Source of the DNA: Longimicrobiales bacterium
GTDB lineage: Bacteria; Gemmatimonadota; Gemmatimonadetes; Longimicrobiales; Gaopeijiaceae
Reading direction: 5' to 3'
Assembly (NCBI GenBank): GCA_965116095.1
Contig: OZ220481.1
Coordinates: 1,525,192 to 1,589,191, forward strand
Length of the DNA stretch: 64,000 nucleotides
Shown piece by piece: positions 3,645 to 53,518 of this stretch. The notes beneath the pieces are model-generated. The model was not told the DNA's origin. It did no database searches and saw nothing but the letters and a program-made list of their open reading frames with translations. Within the stretch, counting starts at the first letter, position 1. Each line of letters starts with the position of its first letter. The position numbers and the translations under genes are program-made.

Positions 3645-4023
3645 CAGACTTCTCCGGTTGCGCTCCGTCGGACGCGAACAGCCTCTCGTACAGAGCTTCG
3701 TTGAATCCCGCCACGAAGACGGTTCCCGCGCGGATCGAGGGCGCCCGGAGCTTTCCGGTCCGCCCAAAGATCGGCGAGAGCGCGTCATCTCCAAGGGGCG
3801 CGCCCTCGAGGTTGAAGGAAACCACCTTCTTGCCGCGAGTCGCATACAAGGTACGGACGCCGGAGAGGATCTTCCGCGCCTCGCTTCGGTCCACGGGCGC
3901 CTTCCCGGCGTGCCGCACCTCTCCGTCTCGTACGCCGTGCTTTGCAAGAAACTCTTGCGTGCGCTTGCAGCTGGTTCAGCCCGGCCGGTGGTAGCGCCAG
4001 GCGAGCTTCGGTTGATCGCTCAT
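3634..4023 (-). CDS. ArsC/Spx/YffB-family thioredoxin-fold protein with an in-frame TGA at codon 16. This is either a selenocysteine (UxxC) candidate or a recent pseudogene. The ORF track only reports the part after the TGA (3634..3918).
   Basis: Read through the TGA, the product is MSDQPKLAWRYHRPG-[TGA]-TSCKRTQEFLAKHGV...LRAPSIRAGTVFVAGFNEALYERLF, 129 codons. This aligns residue-for-residue with the Spx N-terminus ([21 protein letters not shown]), with the TGA on the first Cys of the CxxC motif. A GAGGAGG Shine-Dalgarno sequence sits just 5' of the ATG at 4023. The C-terminal motif is like the ArsC/YffB-family C-terminus. Confidence 0.4.
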
Positions 4024-14696: not shown

Positions 14697-15321
14697 GAGT
14701 CTCGGGTAAGTACCCGTAGGGACGCGTGAGCGCGCCAGTGGATGGAGGCTCGCCTCTCCATCGGGGTCGCAGCGCTTTGAGCGAATGTCCGTGGATTCGG
14801 TCGCGCCCCACAGTGGGTGCTTTGTGGAGGCGAAGCATTTCGACGACCGACCTCAGCATGTCCGTTCGAATCCGCTTGCTCTTGGGAAGCACTCCTTGAG
14901 GACGCACGGGTTCGGCGCCCCTGACGGCGCTGAGCGCGCAACGGACTGACGCGGAAGAGTGTGCGGCTCTTGACGCGAAATGATGTCGAGCGACTCTCTT
15001 TCGCCGAGAGGAGGGGAAATTGCGGAAAATCCAACCCAGCGGCATTATGGATGATGCAGTCGCTCTGCCCCATTCTCCGCCTGACAACCCTTAGTCCACA
15101 TCAACATGAGCCAAGACGGATTCCAGCGCGCGCTTGACCAGATCCGGTCCATTGCCACCCACCAAGCGGACAAGGGCCGGCTATTCGAGCGACTGATGGC
15201 GGCGTTCTTCAAGGAGGACCCCGTTTATCGAGAGCGATTCTCGGGAGTCTGGCTGTGGAAGGACTGGGTCGACAAGAGGCTCGCGGAGGCCGCAAAGTAC
15301 TGTCCTTCAAGGCGATACCAT

Positions 15322-15335
15322 CCCCCCCCCCCCCC
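15322..15335 (+). repeat. Homopolymeric poly-C tract (14 C) inside the restriction-modification gene, at the nuclease/helicase junction. Slippage-prone contingency tract.
   Basis: Seen directly. Translated as PPPPP in the 15106 ORF, which terminates 5 codons later. 13 or 16 C would fuse it in-frame to the downstream frame (GIDLVAEEADG...). Confidence 0.9.
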
Positions 15336-18300
15336 AATTTGGTTTAGATAGGGCTGATCTCGGCATTGATCTGGTCGCAGAAGAGGCGGACGGAAGTGGC
15401 TGGTGCGCGATCCAGTGCAAGTGCTACGCGCCGGGAACGCGCGTAAGCAAACGACACCTCGATTCCTTCATCTCGGCGTCGGCGCGCGAGCCGTTCACCG
15501 CGCGCATCGTGGTCGACACCGGGGACTCTTGGGGTCCGAACGCCCTAAAGACCCTCAAGGGGCTGAAGCCCGCCTGCGCGGTTCTCAGATTCGGCGACCT
15601 TGCGGACCGACGCTTTGAATGGCCGGATCTTTCGGCGCATCGGCCCGAGGATCTCCGCTACGCCGGCGCGCCGTTTACGCTTCGTCCGCACCAGAAAGAG
15701 GCGCTGGACGATGTAATGGCCGGCTTCGAGGCCTTTGATCGCGGCAAGCTGGTGATGGCATGCGGCACCGGCAAGACCTTTACCGCCCTTCGGATCGCGG
15801 AGGCGGTCGCGGGCCCCGGAGGCCGGGCGCTTTACTTGGTGCCTTCGATCTCACTGTTTGCGCAGTCTATGCGCGAGTGGGCCACGCAGAAGTCCATTCC
15901 TCACGGCTACATCGGCATCTGTTCGGATACAAGCGCGGGGCGCTACAGAGAAGACGCCACGCTGATGGAGCTTGAGATCCCGGTCACGACCTCGCCGGTT
16001 CGCATTTCGGAGGAGCTTCGCAAGGAGCGGCCGGAGCAGATGACGGTCGTGTTTTGCACCTACCAGTCGCTCCCGTTGGTGGAGCGCGCTCAACAAGAGG
16101 GGGCCCCGCCGTTCGATCTCATCCTCTGCGACGAGGCGCATCGGACCACCGGAGTGGAGCGAGCGGACGACAAGAAGACCTCGCCCTTCGTCCTCGTGCA
16201 CGACAACGCCCGAATTCGTGGACGCAAGCGGCTGTACATGACCGCGACGCCGCGCATCTACACGGACAGATCAAAGAGGAAGGCCGCCAAGCACAGCATT
16301 GACGTCTTCTCGATGGACGAGAAAGAGATCTACGGCCCCGAATTCCACCGCCTTTCCTTTTCGCGAGCGATTGAACGCGAGCTGCTCTCCGACTACAAGG
16401 TCGTCATTCTCGCCTTGGCGGAAGACAGGGCGAACGCAGTGCTCCGGAAGCACGTCTCCAGTAGCGAGGCGAGCGAACTCAACATCACCGACGCCGCCAA
16501 GATCATGGGCTGCTGGCGGGCGCTTCAGCGACGCCAGGCTGCGGGAGGCAACGGGAAAGCGGACGACGAGTCCGAACGCCCGCTTACGCGGGCGATCGCC
16601 TTCGCGAATACCATCAAGGCCTCCCGTCTTTTGGAAAAACACTGGGACGGCGTGGTCGAGCAGGCGATCAGCATGCTGCCGCCGGAGGAACGGGCGAGCG
16701 CGCTGCGATGCTCTACGAAGCACGTAGACGGAAAGACGCGGGCGCTGGACCGCAAGGCGCGGATCGAGTGGCTGAAGGGCAAGGAGGACGGCGTCTGCCG
16801 GATCCTGAGCAACGCCCGCTGTCTTTCGGAGGGCGTCGACGTACCGGCGCTGGACGCCGTGTTCTTTACCGCGCCGCGCAGGTCTCCCGTCGAGATCGTC
16901 CAAGCGGTGGGACGGGTCATGCGCAAAACCCCGGACAAGGACTACGGGTACATCGTGCTCCCGGTCGCCATTCCGCCGGGAGTGTCGCCGGAGAAGGCGC
17001 TGAACGACAACAAACGCTTCGAATCCGTGTGGGAGGTCCTGCGCGCGCTCCGCTCCCACGACGACCGGTTCGATGCCGAGGTCAACCGGCTCGATCTGAA
17101 GAGGCCGGAGCGGATCATTATCGACATCGACGACTCGGATCAGTGGGAGATCGCATTTCCGCCGCTCGACCTACCGCCCGAGGCGATCTTCGCGAAGATC
17201 GTCGAGAAGTGCGGCGACCGAAAGTACTGGAAAACGTGGGCCAGTGACATCGCCGACATTTTTGCTCGCTTAGTGGAGCGAATCGGGAGTCTTCTGGCCG
17301 ATCCAGCAAACGAAGCGCTCAAGGAGTGGTTTGACGGCTTCCACCAAGAGCTGCGCGAGTCGATCAACAAGTCGGTCAGCGAGAGCGACGCCGTAGACAT
17401 GGTTGCGCAACACATCCTCACTCGACCGGTTTTCAACGCGCTCTTCGAGGGATACGACTTTGCTCGTGGAAATCCCGTCGCGCGGGCGCTGGAGCAGCTG
17501 CGCCAAGACTTCGGAGAGTTTGGGCTGGAAAACGAGCTCCGCGACATGGAGCCCTTTTATAAAAGCGTCCGGCTTCGCGCCAGAGGTTTGGACGACAGCG
17601 CGGCGCGCCAACAGGTACTGAAAGAGCTGTACGAGCACTTCTTCAAGATCGCGCTAAGCAAGGCAGCCGAGCGCTTGGGAATCGTCTACACGCCCGTCGA
17701 GGTGGTGGACTTCATTCTTCGAAGCGCGGATCACGTGCTGCGGGAAGAGTTTGGCAAGGGGCTTACCGACGAGGGGGTACATGTACTGGATCCCTTCACC
17801 GGGACAGGCCTCTTTCCAGCGCGAATGCTCCAGCTTGACCTGATTGACGACGCCGACGTGGCGCGCAAGTACCAAGAGGAGATTCACGCAAATGAGATCG
17901 TACTGTTAGCCTACTACATCGCAGCGGTCAACGTCGAAGAGGCTTTTCGCGCAAGAAGGGGCCTCGGAAGTGAATACAGCCCTTTCGAGGGCATCGTTTT
18001 GACTGACACATTTAACATGAATGAGTGCCAGACGAGCGTCTTCCTGTCAGAAAACAGCGACCGATCCAGCCGGCAGGAACAGGCGCGCATTGAAGTAGTC
18101 GTTGGCAATCCGCCTTGGTCTGCAGGGCAACGGAGTTCTGCCGACAATAACCCAAACGCAAGATACCCGGCGGTGGAGGCGCGAATCGCGAAGACCTACG
18201 CGGTGCGCTCGACAGCAGCAAACAAAAACAGCTTGTACGATTATTACAAAATGGCCATTCGATGGGCCTCTGACCGCATCGGCGATCAGGGCGTCGTCGC

Positions 18301-19107
18301 TCTCGTAACGAATGGGTCTTGGATCAGCGGCAACGCGGATTCGGGAGTCCGCGCGTGTTTGGCGGAAGAGTTTACGTCAATCCATGTAGTGAATCTTAGA
18401 GGTAATCAGCGCACACAGGGCGAACGGTCTCTTCAAGAGGGCGGAAAGATTTTTGGCCAAAGCTCCCGTGCGCCAGTAGCGATTACGCTATTGGTTCGTA
18501 ACCCCAAGAAATACAAGAACGGGTGTCGTATCTTGTATCACGACATCGGCGACTACCTGAAACGAGAAGACAAACTCAAAATTCTGCGCAGGGTCAGGTC
18601 GATTCAGGGAATATCCCAAATCAATTCTAAAAATGGATGGCGAGAGATCACACCAGATCCACATCATGATTGGATCGATCAGCGAGATCCTCGCTTTCAA
18701 CGTTTTTTTCCAATTAGCGTAAAGGTCAGTGGAGCAGATAGAGATGCAAGACCGGATGCAGTGTTCCGCAAATACAGTCATGGGTATCAGACCGGCAAGG
18801 ACGCTCATGTGTATAGTTTCTCGCCCAAAGCCTGTCTAGACAATGCCCGCAGTATGATTGCTGAATATCACTGTGCCGTGCGTGAATACGCTGATAACAA
18901 GGATTCAGTTTTTCATCGATTTGCTTCAAATATAAAATGGAATGCAAAACTGCGAAATCGCGTTAAAAATGGACTTGCGCGCAAATTCTCCGATAAATAC
19001 CTGAGAAATGTTGCATATCGACCCTTTGTTGGACAAATTCTCTATGGGGATCAGTTTTTTGCACACAGGCCCGCACACACAAGAGCCATGTTCCCTACTA
19101 CTGAACA

Positions 19108-19140
19108 TCGGGGAACAGGAATCGGGGAACAGGAATCGGG
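19108..19140 (+). repeat. Direct tandem repeat of a 14-nt unit (tcggggaacaggaa, 2.4 copies) inside the restriction-modification gene
   Basis: Seen directly. Translated as EQESG / NRNR in the two overlapping frames. Confidence 0.8.
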
Positions 19141-19190
19141 TCATTTGTGTTTCGGGTTTGGGATCGACGAAGCCCTTCTCGACGCTCGTC

Positions 19191-19440
19191 GTCAACGTGC
19201 TTCCCGACTCGGAGCTGGTGTCAAAAGGACAGTGCTTTCCCCGTCACCTATACCGAACAACCGAGCGATCTGCCTTCCCGGCATTGGGTCCGGGAGAGAA
19301 TTCTCGGTCTTTATCGTTGACAGACTGCCGGATTACCACATCCTTACAAACGGGCAGTGCTTCCCTCGCTGTGATTGGGTCCATTCACGGGGGTACCTTT
19401 GACCACCCTGACGTGTTTTCCCAGGAGTCGCCGACACTCC
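19191..19440 (+). repeat. Imperfect tandem duplication of a unit of about 122 nt, with the two copies read in different frames (VVNVLPDSELVSKGQCFPRH... versus IVDRLPDYHILTNGQCFPRC...)
   Basis: Both overlapping ORFs (ending 19402 and starting 19008) carry an LPD-x7-GQCFPR peptide about 122 nt apart, not a multiple of 3. Confidence 0.6.
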
Positions 19441-20198
19441 AGCGAATCGACAACATTACCGACGCGGCCTTGCTCCGGTTTCGGGCTGAGTACCAAGACG
19501 AGGACATTCAAAAGGACGACATCTTCAACTACGTCTACGGCATCCTGCACTCGCCGCGCTATCGCGACCGGTTCAAGAACGACCTTTCCAAGGGCCTGCC
19601 GCGAATTCCCTTTGCTCCTGACTTCGACGCCTTTGCTGGAGCGGGATCGGCGCTCTCGGAGCTGCATCTTCGCTACGACGACGAGAATCTCACGCGGTAT
19701 CCACTAAAGGTGGTGTCTTCTACGGGCCGCGATTTGGAAGCCGGCGATTTTCGATTGGGGAAGCGCCGGATGCGCTTTGCGGACAAGACGAAGCGCGATA
19801 CGCTGATCGTGAACGACCAAGTGAGACTCTTCGGCATTCCGAAGGAGGCCCACCGCTATGTCGTTGGCGGGCGAACGCCGCTTGAGTGGTTTATCTTCTA
19901 CTTTTTCGTAAAGACCGATAAGAGGAGCGGAATCGTAAACGACGCGAACGGGTGGTTTGAAGACCCTCGAGACTTGGTGCCAGCCATTGAGCGACTTGTC
20001 TATGTGAGCGTCGAGTCGGCTAGAATCGTTGATAGTCTCCCCGACCCGTTCGGCGACGTGCATAATGCATAGCTGCGTGAGGTCCGCGATATTTGAGGCC
20101 TGACTGAGCTTTCGACCACAGGCGCGTCGGAGTCGCGTCTTCCCTCCTTGCGGTTTCCTCGGACGAGCTGGCAAAGGCACTGGAGCGAATCTGGAAAC

Positions 20199-33820: not shown

Positions 33821-33866
33821 AAGAAGAGAAGCGGGGTTCCAGAGCCTATGCTCCGGAACCCCGCTC
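33821..33866 (-). terminator. Rho-independent terminator candidate downstream of the large repeat protein gene
   Basis: Ten-bp GC-rich stem (gcggggttcc / ggaaccccgc) with a loop. On the minus strand it is followed by UUCUCUUCUU. Confidence 0.5.
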
Positions 33867-33902: not shown

Positions 33903-36900
33903 TTAGCTGAGCGGAACGTAGCTGATCCGAATGAACCCCTTGGTTTGGAGCGCATGGCATTGGTAGGCCGATGGCGGGTCAAACTCTTGATGCGCGCCCC
34001 ACGCCGCCTTGGTCGGATCATGCGGCACAATGATCCTCCTTGTTGCTGGGCGGCTCCACTTGGTGGAGTCCGGTTCGTTAAACACGCCGCTGCTTGGGTC
34101 GCATGCAACGCCATTACTGCCCCACTTCATCTCGAATTTTCCATCCTTGCTTTTCGCGCCGTTTTCTTGCTGCAAGACATAGCGGCCCGGAGCCAGCTCG
34201 ATTACGGGCTCGTGCCCATCAAGCTTGAGCCAAAAAGAGAGAATTTTGTCGTTGCCTTCCGTCACCATAGGGTACTTTCCGCCCACGTACCTCTTTAGCG
34301 TCGCTACCGAGTCGGTCCCGTAGTCGGCCACCGCCGAATCCGTAATCGTGAGCGCGTGATATCTGGGGTGAGAAAAGCCGTCGCCGCAATCCACGAAGGT
34401 GGTGTCGTTATTTCCGGCTCGCCTGCTTGAAGCTCCGCATTTGAAAAACGGAAATTCAATCATGCCCTCGTGCTTTTTCCTGCTCGAGTCCACCGAATCC
34501 TGCCCAGGGTACATCCACACCTTCGTCTTGATCTTCCGGTTCGCCACCATCCCAAAGCCCAAAGCCTGATGTCCGGGAGCCGCCAAGCCGCTTAGGCGCG
34601 GCCCCTCGTTGGCCGCGTATTCCTCCATGATCACGCCCGTCCGGTGATCCTGGCGCACCGCGTCCGTCTTGGCGCCCCAAGCGCCGCCGCCTGCACAGAG
34701 AACCGATTCTCCCTTGCACTGGAACCTCTTGTTGTCTCCGGCGAACGGCTCTTGAATCGTCGCCGCTTTGTCGAAGTTCTTTGTGTCCGTCTCGTTGTCG
34801 CTGGGGTATGCCAGCTGCGTTCCCGCGCCGGCAACGGTCACTTGGTAGACCTCCGACGGCAGCCCCTCGAACTCGAAGGTCCCGTCGTCGTCGGTCCGCG
34901 TCCGCCGGGCGTGGCCACGCGGCACCGACAGAATCTGCGTCGTCTCTTTCGCCTCAGCCTTCACCTTGCCCGTTACCCGCACCTTCAGCGATACCTGCTT
35001 GCCGCCCTGGACGAACGTTTGCGTCCCATCCACGTACGTCGCGCCGGACAAACCACGCGTCACGTTCGAACAATCGAGGTCCGCTGTCGGCGGGAGCGTG
35101 TCGGCGTCGTTGAAGCAGATGCCCGTCACGCGCACGGCCGCCCTGCCCTCGAGGCCCGCATCCATAAAGCGCGTCTCGTAGTGCGTCATCCCCTCCGGCA
35201 TCAGCTCCTTCAGGCCCGTCGCTTCGTCCGCGCCCACCGTCGCCATACCCAACGACATCGTCTCCGAATACGAAATGCCCGTAAACCGCGTCCCGTTGTC
35301 CTGCAACATCCGGAACATGTAGTCGGAGTCGCCCGCCGTAGCCGTCACCGCGTACGTGCCGTCCAGCATCTCCCGAATCACCGCCTTGCCCATGTCGTCC
35401 GTATTTTCCTCCATCGTCTTGCCGCCGTGCAGGGCCTTCGCCATTAGCTCGACGTCCATCCCGTCCGCATTCATCGGATCTCCGGCGCTCCTGAACATCG
35501 CCGACAACGAGTTGCCCATGCGCTTGTAGCCGAAGCTCGAACACATTTTCTTATCCCGAGGATTCGCCTTGCACGCCGCGTACATCGGCATGTGCGCCAT
35601 CGAGTTCGGATCCAAATCCATCGTCTCCGACCCCACGATCATCCCGCCCTCCTCCTCGAGCCACGAATCCAGCTCCGCCCGCAGCCGATACTTCCCCTCC
35701 TGCGTCATGACGCCCTTGAAGACGTGCGAGGAGTCCAGCATCGTCGTCGACGACACGATCTCCCAGCTCCCGCCGTCCGACATCTTCTCCAAGTGCAGCT
35801 CCACGTCGCCCTCCGACGGCGCCACGTCCTTCCTGTCCCCCGTGCACGTCTTGTCCGTCGCCTTCAGCGGCACGCACGACACGCCAGGCACGTCGTCCAG
35901 CTCCCGGTGCGCGCCGACCTTGACGTCCACCTTCTTGTGACCCACCACCAGCGTCCCCAGATGCATCGCCTCGTCCGGCGGATGCAGGCCGTTGTGCGTG
36001 AACTCCAAATACTCCATCCCCTCGTCGTCCATGTCGTGGTGGAAGTACAGATTCATGTCCTTCATCCCCACGCGATACTTCCCCGTCTTCGACGGCGCCG
36101 CCGTCAGCGTCAAGGACGCCGATCCGTTCGAGCCCGTCGTCGCCGTCGCCGACGCCGTCTTGCTCGTCCCCTTGAACGCCGCCACCTCCGCCTTGTTCAT
36201 GTACCCGCCGCCCGCGCTCCCCCGACGCACGCTCCGCACCGTCAACGACACGTTCGCCTTGTTCGCCAGGTACAGCAGCGGATCCATCGACTCCGACTTT
36301 AAGGACATCGGATCCACCATCGCCGTGTCCGTTGCGTCCTCCGCCTTAAAGTCCGCCGCCATATCTCCCATCGATCCCATGAGATACACCATGTTCCCCG
36401 CGAGAGAGCCCGTCGGAATCTCGAGCATCGCCATCCCGTCCTCGTCGGTCTTCGCCTCCGCCAGCGCCTCCTGACCCCACCCCTTCGCGTGATCCTCGGG
36501 GTCGCTCGCCACCGCCTTCACCATGACGCCCTCGACCCCCATGTCGCTCATGCAATCGTCCTTCGCGCAATTCGCGTAGCCGTACTTCGCCATCACGGTC
36601 AGCGAATGATGCGTCAGCTCGTACTCGAAGTCATGCTTCATCTCTTCGCCCGCATCCAGCTCGATCACCATCCCCGTCGTTCCCAGTCCGCCGCCCGTCA
36701 TCTTCGTGTGCGTCGGATTCATCGGAGGCGACGCGTACACCAGCCGGTAGCTCCCGGCTTTTAGCTCCCCGAAGCTGTACATCCCCATATCGTCCGTCAT
36801 TGCGGTCCTCGCGTCCGCCACGCCCGGCCCGTTCAACGTCAGCTTCACCGCGCCGGACAGACCCGCCGCGCCCGCGTCGCGCAGCGTCTTCTCGCCGCCC

Positions 36901-38339
36901 GCCAAAACCAGCATCCCCGAAACCCTCGCCGTGCGCACGTGCGTCCCGCTGAAGTTCGCCCGCGTCTCCATATCATCCATCGCCTCGACCTCCATCTCCA
37001 TCTCCTCGAAAGCGTACATCCCCATCTGCGCCTCCGTCGGCATGAGCGCTGCCATGTACGTCCCCGCCTTCAAGCCCCGGAAGGAGTACACCCCCGACGC
37101 ATCCGTAGTCGCGTTCATCGCCTCGTCCATGTCCCCGCCCGTCAAGCGCACCGCCATCCCGGCGACGAACATCCCCTCGACGCTCACCGCGCCCGCAATC
37201 GCCGCCGTCCGCAGCATCGATCCCTGAAAGTCCACCGTCCCCCGCTCCCCCGGATCCAGCGTTACTTCCCTCGAGGTCGCCGCAAACTCGTACGACTCCG
37301 CGTCGTACCCCGAGATCGACACCGTCCACGTCCCGGGCAGCAGCCCGGAAAAGACGTACATCCCGTCCGCGTCCGTTCGCGCGGACGGCGCATCCTCCGG
37401 CCCGTCCAACTCGACCACGGCGCCCTGAACCGGCTGACCGTCCGCAAGCACGTGCCCCGAAATCGACGCGCCCCTCAAGAACGTCCCCGAAAAGTCCGCC
37501 TTGACCACCGCGTTCGCCGCAGCCTCCACGTCCATCGACTCTTCGGAAAAACTCACGCGATCCGCGTCGTACCCCGATATCGTCACCGCGTAGCTCCCCG
37601 GCAGCAGATCCGCAAAGGCGTACATGCCGTCCGAATCCGTCGCCGCCCGATGCTCCTCGACTCCCGAAATCTCGACCGCGACGCCCGCCAAAGGCTCGCC
37701 CTCCGCCTCGACCACGCCTTCGATCCCCGCCGTGCGCAGCATCGTCCCGGCAAAGTCCGCCACCTCCGTCGACGCCACCGCCAGCGTCCGCGTCACGCTC
37801 GTCTCCGCAAAGGCGTACAAATCCGCGTCGAATCCCGAAATCTCCACCGTGTGCGTTCCCGCCCGAAGCCCCGAAAACGCATACGCGCCCATCGCGTCCG
37901 TCATGACCGATCCCTCGGACATCCCCGAAAGACGCACCGTCACGCCCTCAAGGCGCATGTCGCCGGCCATCACCGTACCCGTCAGCGCCGACGTCCGTAT
38001 CCACGACCCCGAAAAGTCCACCGTCACCGACTGACCCGCCGACGCTATCGTCGCAGACCCCGTCGCGGCGTCAAACGCCGCGTCCGCCGGATACCCCGTT
38101 ATCGACACCGCGTAGGTACCCGCCTCCACGCCGTCGAACCGATACGACCCGCCGCCCGACGTCGTCTGCGAACTCCCGTTCGACAGCGACACCGACACGC
38201 CGTCCAGCCCTTCCCCCTCCACCATCACCTTCCCCAGAATCGACCCCGCCTCGGGCGGCGCCGTAGCCTCGTCACAGGCCCACGCGCCTACCGCCAGCAG
38301 CGCCCCGATCCCGAGCGCCCTCATCTTGCCTCTGCTCAT
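33903..38339 (-). CDS. Giant secreted protein (about 1478 aa). It has a signal peptide, about eight CarboxypepD_reg-like (transthyretin-like) beta-sandwich repeats, an extremely Met-rich central region (~10 % Met) and a Cys-containing C-terminal domain of unknown function.
   Basis: Repeats of about 90 aa ending ...YxFxGLxAGTYTVxISGxDA. Start moved to MSRGKMRALGIGALLAVGAWAC, because the ORF-track start has no signal peptide and includes translated poly-G. Met count is about 10 to 11 per 100 aa over about 600 aa. Confidence 0.75.
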   Translation of the reverse strand: MSRGKMRALGIGALLAVGAWACDEATAPPEAGSILGKVMVEGEGLDGVSVSLSNGSSQTTSGGGSYRFDGVEAGTYAVSITGYPADAAFDAATGSATIASAGQSVTVDFSGSWIRTSALTGTVMAGDMRLEGVTVRLSGMSEGSVMTDAMGAYAFSGLRAGTHTVEISGFDADLYAFAETSVTRTLAVASTEVADFAGTMLRTAGIEGVVEAEGEPLAGVAVEISGVEEHRAATDSDGMYAFADLLPGSYAVTISGYDADRVSFSEESMDVEAAANAVVKADFSGTFLRGASISGHVLADGQPVQGAVVELDGPEDAPSARTDADGMYVFSGLLPGTWTVSISGYDAESYEFAATSREVTLDPGERGTVDFQGSMLRTAAIAGAVSVEGMFVAGMAVRLTGGDMDEAMNATTDASGVYSFRGLKAGTYMAALMPTEAQMGMYAFEEMEMEVEAMDDMETRANFSGTHVRTARVSGMLVLAGGEKTLRDAGAAGLSGAVKLTLNGPGVADARTAMTDDMGMYSFGELKAGSYRLVYASPPMNPTHTKMTGGGLGTTGMVIELDAGEEMKHDFEYELTHHSLTVMAKYGYANCAKDDCMSDMGVEGVMVKAVASDPEDHAKGWGQEALAEAKTDEDGMAMLEIPTGSLAGNMVYLMGSMGDMAADFKAEDATDTAMVDPMSLKSESMDPLLYLANKANVSLTVRSVRRGSAGGGYMNKAEVAAFKGTSKTASATATTGSNGSASLTLTAAPSKTGKYRVGMKDMNLYFHHDMDDEGMEYLEFTHNGLHPPDEAMHLGTLVVGHKKVDVKVGAHRELDDVPGVSCVPLKATDKTCTGDRKDVAPSEGDVELHLEKMSDGGSWEIVSSTTMLDSSHVFKGVMTQEGKYRLRAELDSWLEEEGGMIVGSETMDLDPNSMAHMPMYAACKANPRDKKMCSSFGYKRMGNSLSAMFRSAGDPMNADGMDVELMAKALHGGKTMEENTDDMGKAVIREMLDGTYAVTATAGDSDYMFRMLQDNGTRFTGISYSETMSLGMATVGADEATGLKELMPEGMTHYETRFMDAGLEGRAAVRVTGICFNDADTLPPTADLDCSNVTRGLSGATYVDGTQTFVQGGKQVSLKVRVTGKVKAEAKETTQILSVPRGHARRTRTDDDGTFEFEGLPSEVYQVTVAGAGTQLAYPSDNETDTKNFDKAATIQEPFAGDNKRFQCKGESVLCAGGGAWGAKTDAVRQDHRTGVIMEEYAANEGPRLSGLAAPGHQALGFGMVANRKIKTKVWMYPGQDSVDSSRKKHEGMIEFPFFKCGASSRRAGNNDTTFVDCGDGFSHPRYHALTITDSAVADYGTDSVATLKRYVGGKYPMVTEGNDKILSFWLKLDGHEPVIELAPGRYVLQQENGAKSKDGKFEMKWGSNGVACDPSSGVFNEPDSTKWSRPATRRIIVPHDPTKAAWGAHQEFDPPSAYQCHALQTKGFIRISYVPLS

Positions 38340-38532
38340 ACGCGCTTTCCCTTTCCTAAGTGCGCGCCGGAAAGCCCGGCCCGAGCCCATGACGGACCCG
38401 TTCAAACCGAAGCCTCCCGCGCCTTCCCGCACACGCAAACCCAAGCGCATGCGTTTCGGCACGCCTATATAGGTGCAAGAGTCGTGCCAAAAATGAGAAA
38501 AATTGCGTAAATACCTGCGGTTCAAGGAGATA

Positions 38533-38550
38533 CCCCCCCCCCCCCCCCCC
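38533..38550. repeat. Homopolymeric C18 (G18 on the minus strand) tract in the divergent promoter region between the giant protein gene and the PQQ dehydrogenase gene
   Basis: Seen directly. About 190 bp from each flanking start codon. Confidence 0.9.
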
Positions 38551-38574
38551 ATTTTCTCCGCGATGCGCGAAAAC

Positions 38575-38607
38575 TCGAATTTTCGACGACCCTCATCGAA
38601 ATTTCGA
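38575..38607. promoter_or_regulatory. Pair of 12-bp palindromic operator-like sites, TCGAATTTTCGA (38575..38586) and TCGAAATTTCGA (38596..38607), 21 bp centre to centre, plus a GC-rich hairpin (38631..38660)
   Basis: Seen directly. AT-rich palindromes stand out in about 68 % GC DNA. Spacing is two helical turns. Confidence 0.35.
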
Positions 38608-38741
38608 CACTTGAAGGGCCGGGTTGAGACCAGAAGGCCGTCCCGCATTTCGCGGGAGGCCTCTAACTACGCAGTCGCCGCCGAAGTGGTTGTTTCCTAC
38701 GTTTACCTGAACGCCGACAAACGGAGCGGCGGCGAAACGAC

Positions 38742-43305: not shown

Positions 43306-44676
43306 CTACGAGGCCCTTTGACGCGGCTGAAGCTCGGGGGCGCAGGCGCGCTCCGCAATAAAGGTGGCTCCAGTGGTGCCCGCCAGCCGAGCATGCACAT
43401 AGGCGCCGATTTCGCTCTCTTCCGCGGGCACGACCAGCGCCTTAAAGCGTCGGGTGCGTCCCATGAGCATTCCCTTGGTCTTGGCGGGCCGCTCCAGCAG
43501 GGCTTCCTCCACCCGCCCCACCTCGCCCAGGTTGATCTCTCGCTGAATGCGCCGAGTCAGGCGAATGAGGCGGGTCAAACGCTCGCTTGCGGTATCCGGA
43601 TCGACGAACTGATCGCGCGGAAGTCTGGTGGCGGGCGTGCTCGGTCGCTCGCTGTAGCAGTAGGTAAAGGCCTCGTCAAAACGCACCTCCCGAAGCAGAT
43701 CCAGCGTCTCCTGAAACTCCGATTCGGTCTCTCCGGGGAAGCCCGCGATCACGTCGGTCGAGAGCGCGACATCGGGAACCGCGCGGCGGATCAGCTCGAC
43801 CTTCTCCAGGAAACTCTCCCGCGTGTAGCGCCGAAGCATCCGCTTGAGCGTGCGGTCGCACCCGGACTGAACCGGCAGGTGAAACTGCTCGCACACGGCC
43901 TCTTCGCTGGCCATCGTCTCCGCGAGCTCCTCCGTGACATCGTTCGGGTGCGGAGAGGTAAAGCGCACCCTCCGGATCCCCGGCGTCCGTCCCGCCTCCC
44001 TGAGCAGTCGCGCAAAGCTCCAGCCATCCACGCTCCATGAATTGACGGTTTGCCCAAGCAGCGTGACCTCGGAGACTCCCGACTGCGCAATGCGCCCGAC
44101 CTCGGCCAACACCTCCCGGGGATCCCGGTTTTTCTCCGAGCCGCGCACATAGGGGACGATGCAGAAGGTGCAGCGGTGGTTGCACCCCCTTTGGATCGGA
44201 ATCCACGCCGAGATGCTTGATCGCCGTCGCTGCTCCAGCCCTTGGTAGTTCTCGTCCATCGAGAGGCCAAGCACCGACAGCTGCTTCTGCTTCGGCCCGC
44301 CTCCGGGCGGCCGCGCGGCTCTCCGCCCCGCCTCCCGCACCGCGCTCGCAAGACCCCGATATCCGTCCGGTCCCACGACGAGATCCACGTGAGGCGCGCG
44401 CGAAAGAAGGTCATTCCCCATCCGCTCCGCCATGCATCCGGTGACGCCCAGCACGAGGTCCGGCTTGCTCTTGCGGAGCCCGTTCAGCTGTCCGATGCGA
44501 CCAATCACCCGTCGCTCGGCATGCTCTCTGATCGCACAGGTGTTCACGAGGACGACATCGGCGTCCCCGGCCTCCTCCACGATCTCAAAGCCGTCCGATT
44601 CAAGGAGGCCCTCCATGAGCTCGCCGTCCGAGATGTTCATCTGGCAGCCGTAGGTCTCGACGTACGCTTTCTTCAT
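43306..44676 (-). CDS. miaB: tRNA-i6A37 methylthiotransferase MiaB (radical SAM)
   Basis: MKKAYVETYGCQMN, CNHRCTFCIVP radical-SAM cluster, TRAM C-terminus. Confidence 0.9.
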   Translation of the reverse strand: MKKAYVETYGCQMNISDGELMEGLLESDGFEIVEEAGDADVVLVNTCAIREHAERRVIGRIGQLNGLRKSKPDLVLGVTGCMAERMGNDLLSRAPHVDLVVGPDGYRGLASAVREAGRRAARPPGGGPKQKQLSVLGLSMDENYQGLEQRRRSSISAWIPIQRGCNHRCTFCIVPYVRGSEKNRDPREVLAEVGRIAQSGVSEVTLLGQTVNSWSVDGWSFARLLREAGRTPGIRRVRFTSPHPNDVTEELAETMASEEAVCEQFHLPVQSGCDRTLKRMLRRYTRESFLEKVELIRRAVPDVALSTDVIAGFPGETESEFQETLDLLREVRFDEAFTYCYSERPSTPATRLPRDQFVDPDTASERLTRLIRLTRRIQREINLGEVGRVEEALLERPAKTKGMLMGRTRRFKALVVPAEESEIGAYVHARLAGTTGATFIAERACAPELQPRQRAS

Positions 44677-50029: not shown

Positions 50030-50337
50030 CCCCCGGCGCTTGTTCGAGAAGGCATACCCTCCGTCGGGGGCGCCTGTTGCCCGAGGCCGGATTCCCCTCC
50101 GCTTACCGAAACGCGCGCTCCAGGCCGCCTTCCGACGAGATTCGGTCATAAACTTCCGCTTGATTTCGGGCGACAAAAAGCAGGGCGTTTGGAGGGCATC
50201 CAGCTTTCCAAGAAACGCGACGGGAACCATTTCGCTTCGGACAAGTATTGCTCCTTGGGCGACGAAGACGATCCAGACAGCCGATTCGCCGCCTCCAAGA
50301 GTATTCTCGGTTCACATTCTTGCTCAAGGAGCATCAC

Positions 50338-51387
50338 ATGGAAACACCTCGCGCGCTTCACCCGACATCCCTCCGTCTCCCGCTCCCGGGAGCCGCAGCC
50401 CTCCTCGCATGGGCCATATTCTCGGCCTGCGGCGACAATACCGCTGCCCCGGATCCGCCTGTCGCGACCGCCATCGCCGTCTCGCCCGCCTCGGTAAAGA
50501 TCGGCGCAATCGGGGACACCGTACGCGTGACCGCAACGATTACCGATCAAAACGGCGCCGCCTTCGCGGGCTCTCCCGTCTGGGCCAGCGATGCGCCGGA
50601 CGTCTTCTCCGTCAGCTCTGACGGACTCGTGGAGGCTCTGGCGGAAGGCTCCGGCGCCGTAACCGCGACCTACGAGTCGCTTTCCGCGTCGGCGGAAGTC
50701 ACCGTGGACGCCAATCGGGCGCCCGTCTTCCTGCTTGACACCGCGGCGCAGCTGATCATTGACGTTGGCCAATCAAGCGCGGGCTCCATCGGCGACTTCT
50801 TCCAGGATCCGGATGGAGACGTGCTGGCCTTCACCGCCTCCTCCTCCGACACCTCCATCGTGAAGGTGGAAATTCAGGGCGAGGACGGAGTCGCGTACGG
50901 CGCAGCGGCGGGATCGGCCGTGATCACGCTCACCGCGATTGATCCGGGCGGGCTCTCGGCGAGCGGCGAGATGAACGTCACGGTCGTCGCAAGCAACCGT
51001 GCGCCCGTCCCGGTTCTGGATTCCTTTCCAACCAGGCAAGCAACGGTAGGGGACACGGTCACGATCGACTTTTCGGAGTTCTTCGTCGACCCGGACGAGG
51101 ACGCGCTGACCTTCGCCGCAGCCTCCTCCGACTCTACGATCATCTCCATCTCGGTCGATGGAAACTTGGGATTCCTGCGCGCGCTTGCCGCAGGCGCGGC
51201 GGGAATTGAAGTCACCGCTTCGGATCCCGGAGGTCTGTCCGCAGCCATCGTCCTTCCGGTTGAGATTGCGAGCCCTCTCGCGCCCATCGCCGCTTGGACT
51301 CCCGGCGCGAAGTCCGCTCATTCAATGTCCGAAGAAAGGCGAATCGAACGCGGACCAGCGCCTCCTCGCCCTATTGAAAGGCGCTGA
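50338..51387 (+). CDS. Lipoprotein with a Big_2 (bacterial Ig-like) domain and dystroglycan-type cadherin-like repeats (FxDPDGDxLxFxAxSSD)
   Basis: IFSACGD lipobox. AAGGAG Shine-Dalgarno before the ATG at 50338. Repeat signature. Confidence 0.7.
   Translation: METPRALHPTSLRLPLPGAAALLAWAIFSACGDNTAAPDPPVATAIAVSPASVKIGAIGDTVRVTATITDQNGAAFAGSPVWASDAPDVFSVSSDGLVEALAEGSGAVTATYESLSASAEVTVDANRAPVFLLDTAAQLIIDVGQSSAGSIGDFFQDPDGDVLAFTASSSDTSIVKVEIQGEDGVAYGAAAGSAVITLTAIDPGGLSASGEMNVTVVASNRAPVPVLDSFPTRQATVGDTVTIDFSEFFVDPDEDALTFAAASSDSTIISISVDGNLGFLRALAAGAAGIEVTASDPGGLSAAIVLPVEIASPLAPIAAWTPGAKSAHSMSEERRIERGPAPPRPIERR
50841..50885 (+). repeat. 45-nt stretch identical to 52147..52191 in the paralog (ctcctccgacacctccatcgtgaaggtggaaattcagggcgagga)
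   Basis: Seen directly. Flanks are about 85 % identical over about 120 nt. Confidence 0.8.
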
Positions 51388-51631
51388 TTCGCATGGCGTC
51401 GTCAACCCCAACGGGCGCAGTCGCCCGGTCTCCGCCTTTAGATTCCAGCTTGGCCCAAGGCGTCGGGCTCGTCCGATGTCCTGCGGGAGGAGCACGAGTC
51501 GCGGACGGTCGATTCCCGCGATCCTCGCGATGAGCCTTTGCGCGGCGCCCTCCGACCGCCTTCCACCCAAACTGTGAATCTCGACGCGACGACGAAGATC
51601 TCTCCTTCGCACCCGACCTGAGGAATCTTGC

Positions 51632-53518
51632 ATGCACAGCGCTTCACCCCCACGACACGCGCCTTTTATTACATCACGCATCGCCATCATCGCAGCGGCG
51701 CTCCTTGCCTGGGCTAGCTGCGGAGACGGCGCCACGACGCCCAGCGATCCGCCGCCGGATCCCCCCGCCGCGTCTGCGATCGTCATCTCTCCGGAGTCGG
51801 CCACGATCACCACAATCGGCGACACGGTCCGCTTCACGGCGGCGCTCACCGATCAGTACGGGGCCGCCTTCACCGGCTCGATCACCTGGTCCAGCACGGT
51901 GCCGGATGTCTTCTCCGTCACCTCCGATGGATTGGTGACGGGTCTTGACAACGGGTCCGGGGCGGTGACCGCGACATTCCAATCCCTTTCGGCGGAGGCT
52001 TCGGTCACGGTCGACGCCAATCGGGCGCCCTACTTTCGGCTTGACACGGCGGCGACGCTGGATGTGGAGGTCGGCGAAACGAACACCGGCTCCCTCCAGG
52101 AATACTTCGACGACCCCGACGGCGACGCCTTGGTTTTCTCGGCCGTCTCCTCCGACACCTCCATCGTGAAGGTGGAAATTCAGGGCGAGGAAGGGACCGT
52201 CTATGGCGCGGCGGAGGGATCGGCCGTGATCGAAATCACCGCGACCGATCCCGGGGGGCTTGAGGCGATGGGAGAGCTTCGCGTGTCGGTGACGCAGACC
52301 AATCACCCGCCCCAAGTGCTCGTGGACGAGGTCGACACGTTGATGCTCGCTCCCGGGGACACCATGACCGTGAACGTCAGCGACTGGTTCATTGATCAGG
52401 ATTTGGATTCGCTTTCGTACATGGCGACGACATCGGATTCATCGGTCGCGGTTGCGCATGCGCGCGGAGCATCCGTCGAAATCGAGGCAATGGGCGAAGG
52501 GATGGCGACCGCGACCGTGACCGCTACCGACCCCGACGGTCTGTCCGCGGAGGTCGACGTTCCGATCAAGGTGGTGGCTCCGCCGGAAAATCAGTCGCCC
52601 ATGGCCGTGGGGTCCATCGAGGATCAGTCGGTGAGCTCGGGCGACACGATGTCGCTGGACCTTTCGGGTTACTTCAGCGATCCGGATGGCGACGCGCTCA
52701 TCTACGCGGCGTCCTCTTCCGACGGGGGCGTGGCGACGGCGGAGGTGGACGGCGAAGAGCTGGTCCTTGCGGGAGCTGGACCCGGCGAGGCGACGATCAG
52801 CGTCTCGGCGACCGATCCCGGCGGCTTGTTTGCGGAGCAGACATTCACGGTCTCCGTGCCAAACTCGGCGCCGCAGCTTGTCTTGGAGATCGCCGATACG
52901 GTCCTCGCCTACGAGGCGGATACCCTGGTGGTCAGGGACCTCTCGGCGTACTTCCAGGACCCCGACGGAGAGGACCTCGTCTTTGAGGTCGAGACGGACC
53001 TGGACTGGGATTACGCGGTGGAAGGCTCCGAGCTCGTGATTCGCCACGGCAGGGACATCGCGACGCTCTCGGATACGGTGGCTGAGAGCGGAGCGTTCAC
53101 GGTGAGTGCATTTGACGGGGCGGGGCTTCAGGTCGTAGACACTTTTGAGGCGACCGTCGAGGAGTGGGTCCCGCTCGCTGCGGTTGAAGTCGCTCCGGGC
53201 GTGGTGACCATCACCCTTCCCTCGCTCTCCTTCCCGGTGGTTTCCTGTTTCCCGGTGGACAACTACGTGGTGAACGATCTCAGACTGACCGCCCACTTTA
53301 CCGAATGGCAGACGCGGGCGGACTCCGCGTCGGATTGGATGGCCGTCGCCGGCACCCGAGTGGAAAAGCAGGTCTGCCCGTATCCACCCCTCGGAGTGAC
53401 GCCTGATCCCGGAGAGTACCGCGTCGTTGGAGAGCTGGAGGGTCTTGGCGGGCCTGTGCGCAGGAAGTACCGAAGCATCAACACCTTCACCGTGCCGGCT
53501 GGGTATCCGGGTCGCTAG
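51632..53518 (+). CDS. Paralogous lipoprotein: Big_2 domain, five cadherin-like repeats, and a C-terminal domain of unknown function
   Basis: N-terminal 190 aa about 60 % identical to the upstream gene. WASCGD lipobox. Confidence 0.7.
   Translation: MHSASPPRHAPFITSRIAIIAAALLAWASCGDGATTPSDPPPDPPAASAIVISPESATITTIGDTVRFTAALTDQYGAAFTGSITWSSTVPDVFSVTSDGLVTGLDNGSGAVTATFQSLSAEASVTVDANRAPYFRLDTAATLDVEVGETNTGSLQEYFDDPDGDALVFSAVSSDTSIVKVEIQGEEGTVYGAAEGSAVIEITATDPGGLEAMGELRVSVTQTNHPPQVLVDEVDTLMLAPGDTMTVNVSDWFIDQDLDSLSYMATTSDSSVAVAHARGASVEIEAMGEGMATATVTATDPDGLSAEVDVPIKVVAPPENQSPMAVGSIEDQSVSSGDTMSLDLSGYFSDPDGDALIYAASSSDGGVATAEVDGEELVLAGAGPGEATISVSATDPGGLFAEQTFTVSVPNSAPQLVLEIADTVLAYEADTLVVRDLSAYFQDPDGEDLVFEVETDLDWDYAVEGSELVIRHGRDIATLSDTVAESGAFTVSAFDGAGLQVVDTFEATVEEWVPLAAVEVAPGVVTITLPSLSFPVVSCFPVDNYVVNDLRLTAHFTEWQTRADSASDWMAVAGTRVEKQVCPYPPLGVTPDPGEYRVVGELEGLGGPVRRKYRSINTFTVPAGYPGR

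What the first reader, a model, noticed from the sequence alone, without database searches (positions are those of the whole stretch)
33903..38339. Giant surface protein with a strikingly methionine-rich core (about 10 % Met over about 600 aa): possible Cu(I)-binding or oxidant-sink domain
After about eight CarboxypepD_reg-like repeats, the protein has about 600 residues in which Met is roughly 10-11 per 100 aa by manual count over three 100-aa windows. Typical proteins have about 2 %, and Met codons are disfavoured in high-GC genomes. The Met residues occur in MxM, MxxM, MDDM and MGxM clusters plus His pairs (HHDMDDEGM, MAHMPMY). These patterns are typical of periplasmic Cu(I)/Ag(I)-binding proteins (CopC/PcoC/CusF, Ctr-type Mets motifs) or of sacrificial Met-rich antioxidant proteins. 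A Cys-containing 550-aa C-terminal domain has no family I recognise.
Basis: partly seen in the sequence, partly recalled or inferred. Interest (0 to 1): 0.6.

Follow-up and report, generated by a model that had tools for sequence, protein, structure and literature searches.

The report
Methionine-coated giant surface lipoprotein family
A 1,478-residue surface lipoprotein of a Gemmatimonadota bacterium really does carry about 9 % methionine over 700 residues, a trait shared more mildly by its counterparts in related genomes, but nothing yet shows that it binds copper.

Summary
The gene (33903-38339, minus strand) encodes 1,478 aa. Residues 351-1060 hold 64 Met (9.0 %), against 1.43 % in 25 other window proteins.

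The protein is a lipoprotein: about 11 tandem transthyretin-like (CarboxypepD_reg) beta-sandwich domains, then an orphan head of about 300 aa. The Met-rich "core" is the distal, diverged part of that stalk.

Profile comparison with 1,114 related repeats places Met at solvent-facing strand and loop positions, not in the hydrophobic core. GC3 of the other codons stays at 0.88, so this is not AT drift.

MxM, MxxM and His/Met motifs are no commoner than in shuffles. No CopC, CusF or PCuAC homology was found, and no cop/cus genes lie nearby in four genomes. Copper binding is therefore plausible but untested.

New context:
- The gene is the syntenic counterpart of giant lipoproteins in other Gemmatimonadota, which also have Met-rich mid-zones (4-7 %).
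- All four loci carry an exact sigma-54 promoter core.
- This genome holds 10 paralogues with near-identical stalks (91-97 % among nine) and variable heads (44-82 %; about 20 % for the outlier P0007).
- A G18 tract lies between the enhancer-like dyads and the promoter.

Both AlphaFold models failed.

The parts
33903..38339 (-). Complete coding sequence (1,478 aa plus stop) of the Met-rich giant lipoprotein
   Evidence: It is identical to database protein P0001 apart from that entry's over-extended N-terminus.
38274..38339 (-). Signal peptide with lipobox-like AWAC (Cys22), followed by acidic DE
   Evidence: Read from the sequence. Orthologues carry canonical lipoboxes, MNRLKLL...L(I/A)(N/A)AC[GDE][ED]. 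The Cys count is odd: 15 = 7 close pairs plus Cys22.
36933..38249 (-). Five clear 87-92-aa CarboxypepD_reg (transthyretin-like) repeats, R1-R5, residues 31-469. R5 (378-469) is already Met-rich.
   Evidence: Pfam PF13620, E = 1.3e-54, 7 stretches. Own repeat HMM gives 107-126 bits per repeat.
35160..37289 (-). Met-rich zone, residues 351-1060: 64 Met in 710 aa (9.0 %). 35 Met columns are invariant in all 10 paralogues.
36609..36932 (-). R6 (residues 470-577), a diverged CarboxypepD_reg unit with full-length homologues in other Gemmatimonadota giants
   Evidence: about 35 % identity over 108 aa to P0085, P0010 and others.
35154..36608 (-). R7-R10 (residues 578-1062), four strongly diverged, mostly beta units. 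They contain three Cys pairs (591/596, 822/832, 923/933).
   Evidence: No Pfam or PDB hit. A weak colinear match of residues 762-938 to P0105 957-1174 preserves the Cys pairs. R10 gives a weak repeat-HMM hit.
35955..36047 (-). His/Met/acidic stretch YFHHDMDDEGMEYLEFTHNGLHPPDEAMHLG (residues 765-795), nearly invariant in all 10 paralogues. It is the best single candidate for a discrete metal site.
   Evidence: Alignments A1 and A3. Function is inferred only.
34794..35153 (-). R11 (residues 1063-1182), the last transthyretin-like unit. The variable region starts here, after Cys1075.
   Evidence: Pfam hits to CarboxypepD_reg, EMC7 and NOMO. Identity profile.
33906..34793 (-). Orphan, hypervariable C-terminal head (residues 1183-1478) with three conserved Cys pairs
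   Evidence: Over the whole variable region (residues 1076-end, which includes R11), identity is 44-82 % among nine paralogues and about 20 % to P0007. A profile search of 1.84 billion representatives finds only the family itself and three fragments. No Pfam or PDB hit.
33829..33866 (-). Intrinsic-terminator-like hairpin (17 pairs, 11 G-C) with a T-rich tail, 37 nt after the stop. The gene ends its transcription unit.
38474..38489 (-). Sigma-54 (RpoN) type promoter TGGCACGACTCTTGCA. The GC of the -12 element lies about 135 nt upstream of the ATG.
   Evidence: It is the only exact match in the window. An exact GGCAC-N5-TTGC lies upstream of all three syntenic orthologues on the coding strand.
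38533..38550 (-). Homopolymeric G18 tract (C18 on the + strand) between the enhancer-like dyads and the sigma-54 promoter
   Evidence: Only one other long tract occurs in 64 kb (C14 at 15322-15335), and it shares flanking sequence.
38575..38608 (.). Two 13-nt dyad-symmetric sites, TCGAA(A/T)TTTCGAC, spaced 21 nt apart, about 90-120 nt upstream of the -24 element. Candidate binding sites for an enhancer-binding protein.
   Evidence: Function is inferred from their position relative to the sigma-54 promoter.

Best explanation
ARCHITECTURE (shown or strongly supported). The gene encodes a lipid-anchored, exported stalk-and-head protein. A lipoprotein signal is followed by about 11 tandem transthyretin-like (CarboxypepD_reg) beta-sandwich domains, and these carry an orphan head of about 300 aa. 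It is the positional counterpart of a giant lipoprotein found after rimO/miaB-comEC in other Gemmatimonadota. Like them, it is transcribed from a sigma-54 promoter.

The 'Met-rich core' is the outer half of the stalk (domains 5-10). There, solvent-facing strand and loop positions that normally hold Thr, Ser, Lys, Glu or Gln have been filled with Met, next to many Asp and Glu and some His. The hydrophobic core positions stay Val, Ile, Leu, Phe or Tyr. What is conserved between orthologues is the Met content, not the exact positions. That pattern points to selection for a bulk chemical property of the surface.

FUNCTION (inferred, not shown). The most likely use of a thioether-plus-carboxylate coat outside the cell is low-affinity, multi-site capture or buffering of soft metal ions, Cu(I) first. 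This would resemble the Met-rich insert of CueO, where many Met act collectively and individual sites are dispensable. The variable head would do the specific binding.

About 0.85 of my confidence attaches to the architecture and surface-Met part. About 0.3 attaches to the copper-capture function. The confidence value given for this explanation (0.3) is that of the functional claim.
For: - Met enrichment is 9.0 % against a 1.43 % background.
- GC3 of non-Met codons in the core is 0.88, higher than in the flanks, so ATG is specifically enriched.
- 35 Met columns are invariant in 10 paralogues. Variable ones exchange mainly with Thr and Lys, and also with Leu, Val and Ala.
- R5 aligned to R1-R4 shows Met replacing Thr, Ser, Arg, Asp and Glu at alternating strand positions.
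- In 74 Met-rich repeats from other Gemmatimonadota proteins, Met concentrates at positions that are polar in 751 Met-poor repeats. The conserved core positions have about 0 % Met.
- Syntenic orthologues P0105, P0024 and P0010 have Met-rich mid-zones of 47, 45 and 29 Met per 700 aa, against 1.3-1.7 % Met in their neighbours.
- Other CarboxypepD_reg giants of the same genome (P0009, P0012, P0013) have only about 0.5 % Met.
- Export is supported by the conserved lipobox and the paired Cys.
- The sigma-54 core is conserved in 4 of 4 syntenic loci.
- For collective, site-independent action of Met-rich domains on Cu(I), see PMC11494321.
Against: - No linear Cu(I) motif is above chance.
- There is no homology to CopC, PcoC, CusF, PCuAC or cupredoxins.
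- No cop, cus or multicopper-oxidase genes lie in the window or beside three orthologues.
- Known copper regulons are not typically sigma-54 dependent (my own knowledge).
- No 3-D model is available, so surface exposure rests on profile comparison and is solid only for R5 and for homologous repeats, not for R7-R10.
- Roughly 40 % of variable Met columns swap with Leu, Val, Ile or Ala, so some Met are probably buried.
Confidence: 0.3

Rival explanations
1. Sacrificial antioxidant coat. Exposed Met on an abundant surface stalk are oxidised to sulfoxide by peroxide, hypochlorite or photo-oxidants. This shields the membrane and the functional head.
For: - Selection on composition rather than position is what a chemical sink predicts.
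- Met lies at solvent-facing positions.
- The closest relatives of the host's MiaB-like protein (window 43306-44676) come from MAGs whose names point to salt-flat and lake sites, where irradiation may be high (the habitat link is my inference).
- Periplasmic and outer-membrane Met repair systems exist in other bacteria (PMC9404787, PMC9302797, listed).
Against: - No msr gene lies in the window or in three orthologous loci.
- A protein outside the outer membrane has no obvious reductant, so capacity would be stoichiometric only.
- Nothing links expression to oxidative stress.
Confidence: 0.2
2. Structural or adhesive role. Flexible hydrophobic Met side chains on an otherwise acidic surface mediate lateral packing of stalks, domain-domain contacts or promiscuous binding of hydrophobic partners, as Met-rich surfaces do in calmodulin and the SRP54 M domain. 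No metal or redox chemistry is involved.
For: - Met is spread evenly along 700 aa with no site-like clusters, and MM pairs are avoided.
- Many variable Met exchange with Leu, Val and Ala.
- In the core, Met rises while Val, Ile, Ala and Ser fall.
- The stalk is nearly identical among paralogues (91-97 % among nine), as expected for a shared scaffold that must pack.
Against: - R1-R4 of the same stalk, and other CarboxypepD_reg giants of the same genome, manage with 0.5-3 % Met.
- The accompanying rise in His, and the His/Met/acidic block at 765-795, is not explained.
Confidence: 0.25
3. No function for Met as such. The enrichment is a historical accident of a fast-evolving lineage-specific segment, spread through the genome by duplication and gene conversion.
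For: - All ten copies come from one genome and are 91-97 % identical among nine copies (83-85 % for P0007) in this region. Conservation among them is therefore not independent evidence.
- All common replacement partners of Met (Thr, Lys, Leu, Val) are single-nucleotide neighbours of ATG.
Against: - Independent orthologues at about 40 % identity in three other genomes also have Met-rich mid-zones 3-5 times their local background.
- Seventy-four Met-rich repeats from many MAGs show position-specific Met at surface sites.
- GC3 of the remaining codons is the highest in the gene, so there was no AT drift.
Confidence: 0.1

Closest known systems
Giant CarboxypepD_reg-repeat lipoproteins of Gemmatimonadota (for example P0105, P0024, P0010; annotated only as 'carboxypeptidase regulatory-like domain-containing protein')
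   Same: - Same genomic position, after rimO/miaB x2 and comEC.
- Same lipoprotein signal.
- Colinear at 42 % identity over residues 1-541, plus a weak match of 762-938 that keeps the Cys pairs.
- A sigma-54 promoter core upstream.
- A Met-rich mid-section.
   Different: - The orthologues are 2,100-2,300 aa and end in Cadherin-like, Y_Y_Y or fn3 modules. P0024, P0105 and P0010 each appear once in their syntenic locus.
- Here the distal part is replaced or diverged into R7-R11 plus an orphan head.
- Met reaches 9 % rather than 4-7 %.
- The gene has expanded to 10 paralogues.
- A G18 tract sits in the promoter region.
Met-rich copper-handling segments: CueO Met-rich insert, CopC/PcoC, CusF, PcoE/SilE
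   Same: - Extracytoplasmic location.
- High Met together with Asp and His.
- In CueO the Met act collectively, with dispensable individual sites (PMC11494321).
   Different: - No sequence homology and no characteristic motif spacing above chance.
- No copper genes nearby.
- Met is embedded in folded beta-sandwich repeats over 700 aa, rather than in a loop or helix of 40-50 aa or a small single domain.
Stalk-type adhesins built from prealbumin-like repeats (SdrD B repeats, SpaA-type domains)
   Same: - Tandem beta-sandwich stalk that projects a terminal binding region.
- Pfam SdrD_B and SpaA models hit the repeats.
   Different: - Those are Gram-positive, sortase-anchored proteins with the binding domain at the N-terminus.
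- Here the anchor is an N-terminal lipid and the variable head is C-terminal.
- Those proteins show no Met enrichment, to my knowledge.
Multi-copy surface protein families with conserved scaffold and variable tip, including phase-variable contingency loci and polymorphic C-terminal systems
   Same: - Ten paralogues with 91-97 % identical stalks among nine copies and 44-82 % identical heads.
- Extra frameshifted head fragments exist (P0126-P0128).
- A long homopolymeric tract lies in the control region.
   Different: - There is no toxin or immunity module, and a terminator follows the stop directly.
- Tract-length variation was not observed.
- The loci of the other nine copies could not be read.

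Membership tests
CarboxypepD_reg (PF13620) / transthyretin-like repeat proteins | Significant match to the domain model, in tandem copies | tested here: met
   E = 1.3e-54, 182.9 bits against a cut-off of 32.3, 7 stretches. Five repeats score 107-126 bits with an internal HMM.
Bacterial lipoprotein | N-terminal signal peptide ending in a lipobox with an invariant Cys | tested here: met
   The sequence is ...GALLAVGAWAC|DE, invariant in position in 10 paralogues. Orthologues have canonical L-(A/I/V)-(A/N)-A-C. The -2 Trp in this family is atypical. No dedicated predictor was available.
Syntenic Gemmatimonadota giant-lipoprotein orthologue group | Same gene neighbourhood and colinear N-terminal sequence | tested here: met
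   The order rimO/miaB x2 - comEC - giant gene is seen in the window and in L083, L084 and L085, with FBPase before the giant gene in the three loci and a divergent PQQ-dehydrogenase gene in the window. Identity is 42 % over residues 1-541.
Sigma-54-dependent gene | -24/-12 element TGGCAC-N5-TTGC upstream on the coding strand | tested here: met
   An exact match lies at 38474-38489 and is the only one in the window. Exact cores lie upstream of all three syntenic orthologues. Whether rpoN and an activator are present in the genome could not be checked.
CopC/PcoC, CusF, PCuAC, cupredoxin copper proteins | Sequence membership in the family model | tested here: not met
   No such family appears at E <= 1 in Pfam or NCBIfam. 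A PDB profile search of the core finds nothing.
Mets-motif Cu(I) binding segments | MxM, MxxM, MxxxM or H-M spacings clustered beyond what composition gives | tested here: not met
   All counts lie within shuffle expectation. MM is 0 against 5.6 expected. PCuAC and CusF patterns are absent.
Mets-motif Cu(I) binding segments | Measured Cu(I) or Ag(I) binding | not testable with these tools
   This needs protein biochemistry.
Polymorphic toxin systems (CdiA-CT, Rhs and similar) | Variable C-terminal toxin domain followed by a cognate immunity gene | tested here: not met
   The variable C-terminus is present, but it matches no toxin family. A strong terminator lies 37 nt after the stop, and the next 1.1 kb holds no ORF with a family match or with GC3 as high as the neighbouring genes (0.70 against about 0.8).
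Phase-variable contingency locus | Long simple-sequence tract in the promoter or coding region | tested here: met
   The G18 tract at 38533-38550 lies between the UAS-like dyads and the sigma-54 promoter.
Phase-variable contingency locus | Tract length varies within the population and switches expression | not testable with these tools
   No reads or other strains are available. The genome is absent from the searchable contig collections.

The most novel reading that the evidence does not exclude
Gemmatimonadota carry a conserved, sigma-54-controlled class of giant surface lipoproteins whose stalk domains are deliberately coated with methionine. This would be an undescribed extracellular Met-based chemistry, either a Cu(I) sponge or a sacrificial oxidant shield. 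In this genome the class has evolved into a ten-member repertoire of interchangeable, hypervariable heads. Expression of each copy would be switched by a poly-G tract that changes the spacing between enhancer sites and the sigma-54 promoter.
Probability: 0.15. Interest if true: 0.75.

Novelty: new variant of a known kind. Interest (0 to 1): 0.5.

Why it matters
Met-rich segments are known as short copper-handling inserts in periplasmic proteins. This case is different. Hundreds of residues of folded, extracellular beta-sandwich repeats have their outward-facing positions filled with Met, and the trait recurs in orthologues of an under-studied phylum.

If the coat binds Cu(I) or quenches oxidants, it would be a new way for cells to protect or condition their surface. 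The findings also give a testable function to a very common class of proteins annotated only as 'carboxypeptidase regulatory-like'.

The paralogue expansion, with a constant stalk and variable head, together with a homopolymeric tract inside a sigma-54 control region, would be an unusual route to surface variation in an environmental bacterium.

If none of this holds, the finding is an extreme compositional variant of an ordinary repeat protein.

Tried and rejected
1. AlphaFold2 on the Met-rich core (alignment A2) and on R11 plus head (alignment A4) gave mean pLDDT of 30.5 and 29.4, which is unusable. No fold search was run on them. In hindsight a single repeat with a deep alignment would have been the better job.

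2. Word-index homologue searches with core-only queries (residues 567-1075, then alignment A6) returned nothing, not even the protein itself. They are uninformative rather than negative.

3. I tried to reach the other nine paralogue loci. Exact-protein look-ups of P0001, P0002, P0007 and P0126 found no record. Scans of genome contigs and metagenome contigs with the core alignment found no relative.

4. Cluster members P0122 and P0123 are unrelated short ORFs, a clustering artefact.

5. AT-biased mutation as the cause of ATG gain is rejected. GC3 of non-Met codons is 0.88 in the core.

6. Copper-motif reading is rejected at the level of linear motifs.

7. Polymorphic toxin with immunity gene is rejected for this locus.

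8. I tested whether the poly-G tracts are adapter or assembly artefacts. Flanks show no significant similarity to SMART/ULI, ONT, SMRTbell, Nextera or TruSeq sequences, which I recalled from memory. The single metagenome hit of the flank pattern (L082) reads as natural coding sequence in an unrelated low-GC contig and is probably chance. An artefact is not fully excluded.

9. Rfam found nothing in the window.

10. Literature searches for Met-rich proteins or CarboxypepD_reg proteins in Gemmatimonadota found nothing.

Full report
**1. The observation**

The minus-strand ORF ending at 33903 is real. It has GC3 of 0.83. Read from the ATG at 38339 it gives 1,478 aa that begin with a signal peptide.

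Met is 5.55 % overall, but the distribution is sharply zonal:
- 3.4 % in residues 1-350
- 9.0 % (64 of 710) in residues 351-1060, with 100-aa windows reaching 13
- 1.4 % in residues 1061-1478

Twenty-five other proteins of the window average 1.43 % Met and never exceed 7 Met per 100 aa. The binomial probability of the core is about 1e-30.

**2. What the Met-rich segment is made of**

Pfam finds seven CarboxypepD_reg stretches (E = 1.3e-54), plus related prealbumin-fold models. An HMM built from the protein's own repeats finds the following:
- five clean 87-92-aa units at residues 31-469
- a sixth unit around residue 508
- weaker units around residues 957 and 1122

The fifth unit is already Met-rich. 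The protein is therefore a chain of about 11 beta-sandwich units followed by a head of about 300 aa. The 'core' is the diverged distal half of the stalk, not a separate domain type.

Fourteen of the 15 Cys form seven closely spaced pairs from residue 591 onwards. The fifteenth is the lipobox Cys22. This fits an exported, disulfide-bonded lipoprotein; that reading is inferred from the sequence.

**3. Where the Met residues sit**

Both AlphaFold2 jobs failed, with pLDDT of about 30.

Aligned to R1-R4, the Met of R5 replace Thr, Ser, Arg, Asp and Glu at alternating strand positions and in loops. Only one Met replaces a core Val.

I then aligned 1,114 repeats from 200 other retrieved proteins to the same model:
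- In the 74 repeats with at least 6 Met, Met concentrates at positions 5, 7, 13, 21, 25, 30, 31, 37, 39 and 68.
- In 751 Met-poor repeats, most of these positions hold Gln, Thr, Ser, Glu or Lys and have low hydrophobic fractions.
- The conserved core positions (4, 8, 18, 20, 22, 38, 40, 43, 48, 50) hold essentially no Met.

Among the ten paralogues, 35 core-zone Met columns are invariant. In the 42 variable columns Met exchanges with Thr (16), Lys (11), Leu (9), Val (7) and Ala (5). Most Met are therefore at solvent-facing positions, and a minority are probably buried. This is solid for R5 and the homologous repeats and is only extrapolated to R7-R10.

**4. Not a mutational by-product**

GC3 of the non-Met codons is 0.88 in the core, against 0.84 in the N-terminal part and 0.76 in the C-terminal part. 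ATG has been gained specifically.

Other CarboxypepD_reg giants of the same genome (P0009, P0012, P0013) have about 0.5 % Met.

**5. Not copper motifs as such**

In composition-preserving shuffles of the core, none of these is enriched: MxM (5 observed, 5.6 expected), MxxM (7, 5.7), MxxxM (7, 5.6), His-Met spacings, and CopC-, CusF- and PCuAC-type patterns. Adjacent MM is absent, against 5.6 expected (P = 0.002). Met spacing is otherwise indistinguishable from random.

No copper-protein family is hit in Pfam, NCBIfam or PDB.

The one stretch that looks like a discrete site is YFHHDMDDEGMEYLEFTHNGLHPPDEAMHLG (residues 765-795). It is nearly invariant in all ten paralogues.

**6. Family and evolution**

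The protein database holds the exact protein (P0001) and nine further full-length paralogues. All are recorded on a contig of 2,856,470 bp.

- Residues 1-1075 are 91-97 % identical among nine of the copies.
- From Cys1075 onwards identity falls to 44-82 %.
- The tenth copy, P0007, is about 20 % identical in that region.

A profile of the C-terminal region was scored against all 1.84 billion cluster representatives. For the head it finds only the family itself and three short, frameshifted-looking head fragments (P0126-P0128). Every other hit is to the transthyretin-like unit R11.

The host is a Gemmatimonadota bacterium near Longimicrobiales: its MiaB-like protein (window 43306-44676) is 69 % identical to the best species representative.

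**7. Orthologues elsewhere**

The gene is not an orphan. P0105, P0024 and P0010 are giant lipoproteins of 2,092-2,323 aa from three other Gemmatimonadota assemblies. They lie directly after two rimO/miaB-type radical-SAM genes and comEC, with FBPase in between. This is the position and orientation of the window gene, where a PQQ-dehydrogenase gene on the other strand replaces FBPase.

P0105 aligns colinearly at 42 % identity over residues 1-541, including the signal peptide. It aligns again, weakly, over residues 762-938, with both Cys pairs preserved. The lipobox is conserved across the group.

These orthologues also have Met-rich mid-zones. They hold 47, 45 and 29 Met in the richest 700 aa, while their neighbours have 1.3-1.7 % Met. 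Individual Met positions are mostly not conserved. The window protein is thus the extreme of a conserved compositional trait, which argues for selection on a bulk surface property.

**8. Regulation**

The element TGGCACGACTCTTGCA lies at 38474-38489 on the coding strand, with its -12 GC about 135 nt upstream of the ATG. It is an exact sigma-54 -24/-12 element and the only one in the window. An exact GGCAC-N5-TTGC lies at a comparable distance upstream of all three syntenic orthologues.

About 90-120 nt further upstream are two 13-nt dyads, TCGAA(A/T)TTTCGAC, spaced 21 nt apart. This is the usual geometry of sites for an enhancer-binding protein.

Between the dyads and the promoter lies a G18 tract at 38533-38550. 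A strong terminator follows the stop codon. No cop, cus, msr, rpoN or activator gene lies in the window.

**9. Interpretation**

The architecture is well supported: a lipid-anchored stalk of transthyretin-like domains, a variable orphan head, sigma-54 control, and a Met-coated distal stalk.

The purpose of the coat is inferred. My estimates are:
- about 0.3 for low-affinity, multi-site capture of Cu(I) or another soft metal, by analogy with the collectively acting Met-rich insert of CueO (PMC11494321)
- about 0.25 for a structural or adhesive role
- about 0.2 for a sacrificial antioxidant role
- about 0.1 for no function

The remainder is for roles I have not thought of. The absence of copper genes in four loci and the lack of motifs count against the copper reading. 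The extracellular Met, Asp and His chemistry and the position-independent conservation count for it.

**10. Verdict**

This is a new variant of a known kind of protein. It has added interest from the paralogue expansion with variable heads and from the poly-G tract in a sigma-54 control region.

Noticed in passing
window 15106-19402 (+), tract at 15322-15335: A Type ISP restriction-modification gene (Mrr_cat_2 nuclease, ResIII helicase, ISP coupler, N6 methylase, Type_ISP_C) is split by a frameshift exactly at a C14 tract. One base fewer would restore the frame. It looks like a phase-variable or inactivated R-M enzyme.
   Followed up: partly
window 15301-15340 and 38516-38555: The only two long homopolymer tracts in 64 kb share about 35 nt of flanking sequence: AAAnT-G(14-18)-(AT)GGTATCnCCTTGAA on the G strand. 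The 14-nt flank occurs twice, against 0.01 expected. One copy is inside a coding region and the other is in a promoter region. It may be a small mobile or recognised element. An assembly artefact is not fully excluded.
   Followed up: partly
window 18000-20100: GC drops to 0.525. A second, overlapping ORF (19008-20072) encodes another Type_ISP_C specificity domain with a segment similar to the end of the main ORF. This may be an alternative or duplicated target-recognition module.
   Followed up: no
P0126, P0127, P0128 (not in the window): Three short database proteins (129-209 aa) match only the variable head of the family at high score, and two end in out-of-frame sequence. They look like extra, broken or silent head copies. 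Their location is unknown.
   Followed up: partly
window 4127-8224 (-), 50248-53518 (+), 777-3947 (-): Other large probable surface or exported proteins lie in the same window: a 1,365-aa leucine-rich-repeat protein, two Big_2/Big_9/cadherin-like proteins and a 1,056-aa S9 peptidase. All have ordinary Met content.
   Followed up: no
L083 16625-21778 and L085 14584-20922: In two related genomes the Met-rich giant lipoprotein is followed directly by a second giant gene. One is 1,717 aa with SWM_repeat and fn3 domains. The other is 2,112 aa with no Pfam hit. The window has no such gene.
   Followed up: no
L082 2052-2075: An unrelated low-GC metagenome contig has a G13 tract followed by TATCTCCTTGAA inside an acyltransferase-like membrane-protein ORF, which it splits. 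It is probably an independent phase-variable gene and a chance match to the flank pattern.
   Followed up: partly
tool behaviour: the search for homologous proteins returned no hit at all, not even the query's own database entry, for queries restricted to residues 567-1075 or 578-1062. Negative results from that tool for this region should not be trusted.
   Followed up: yes
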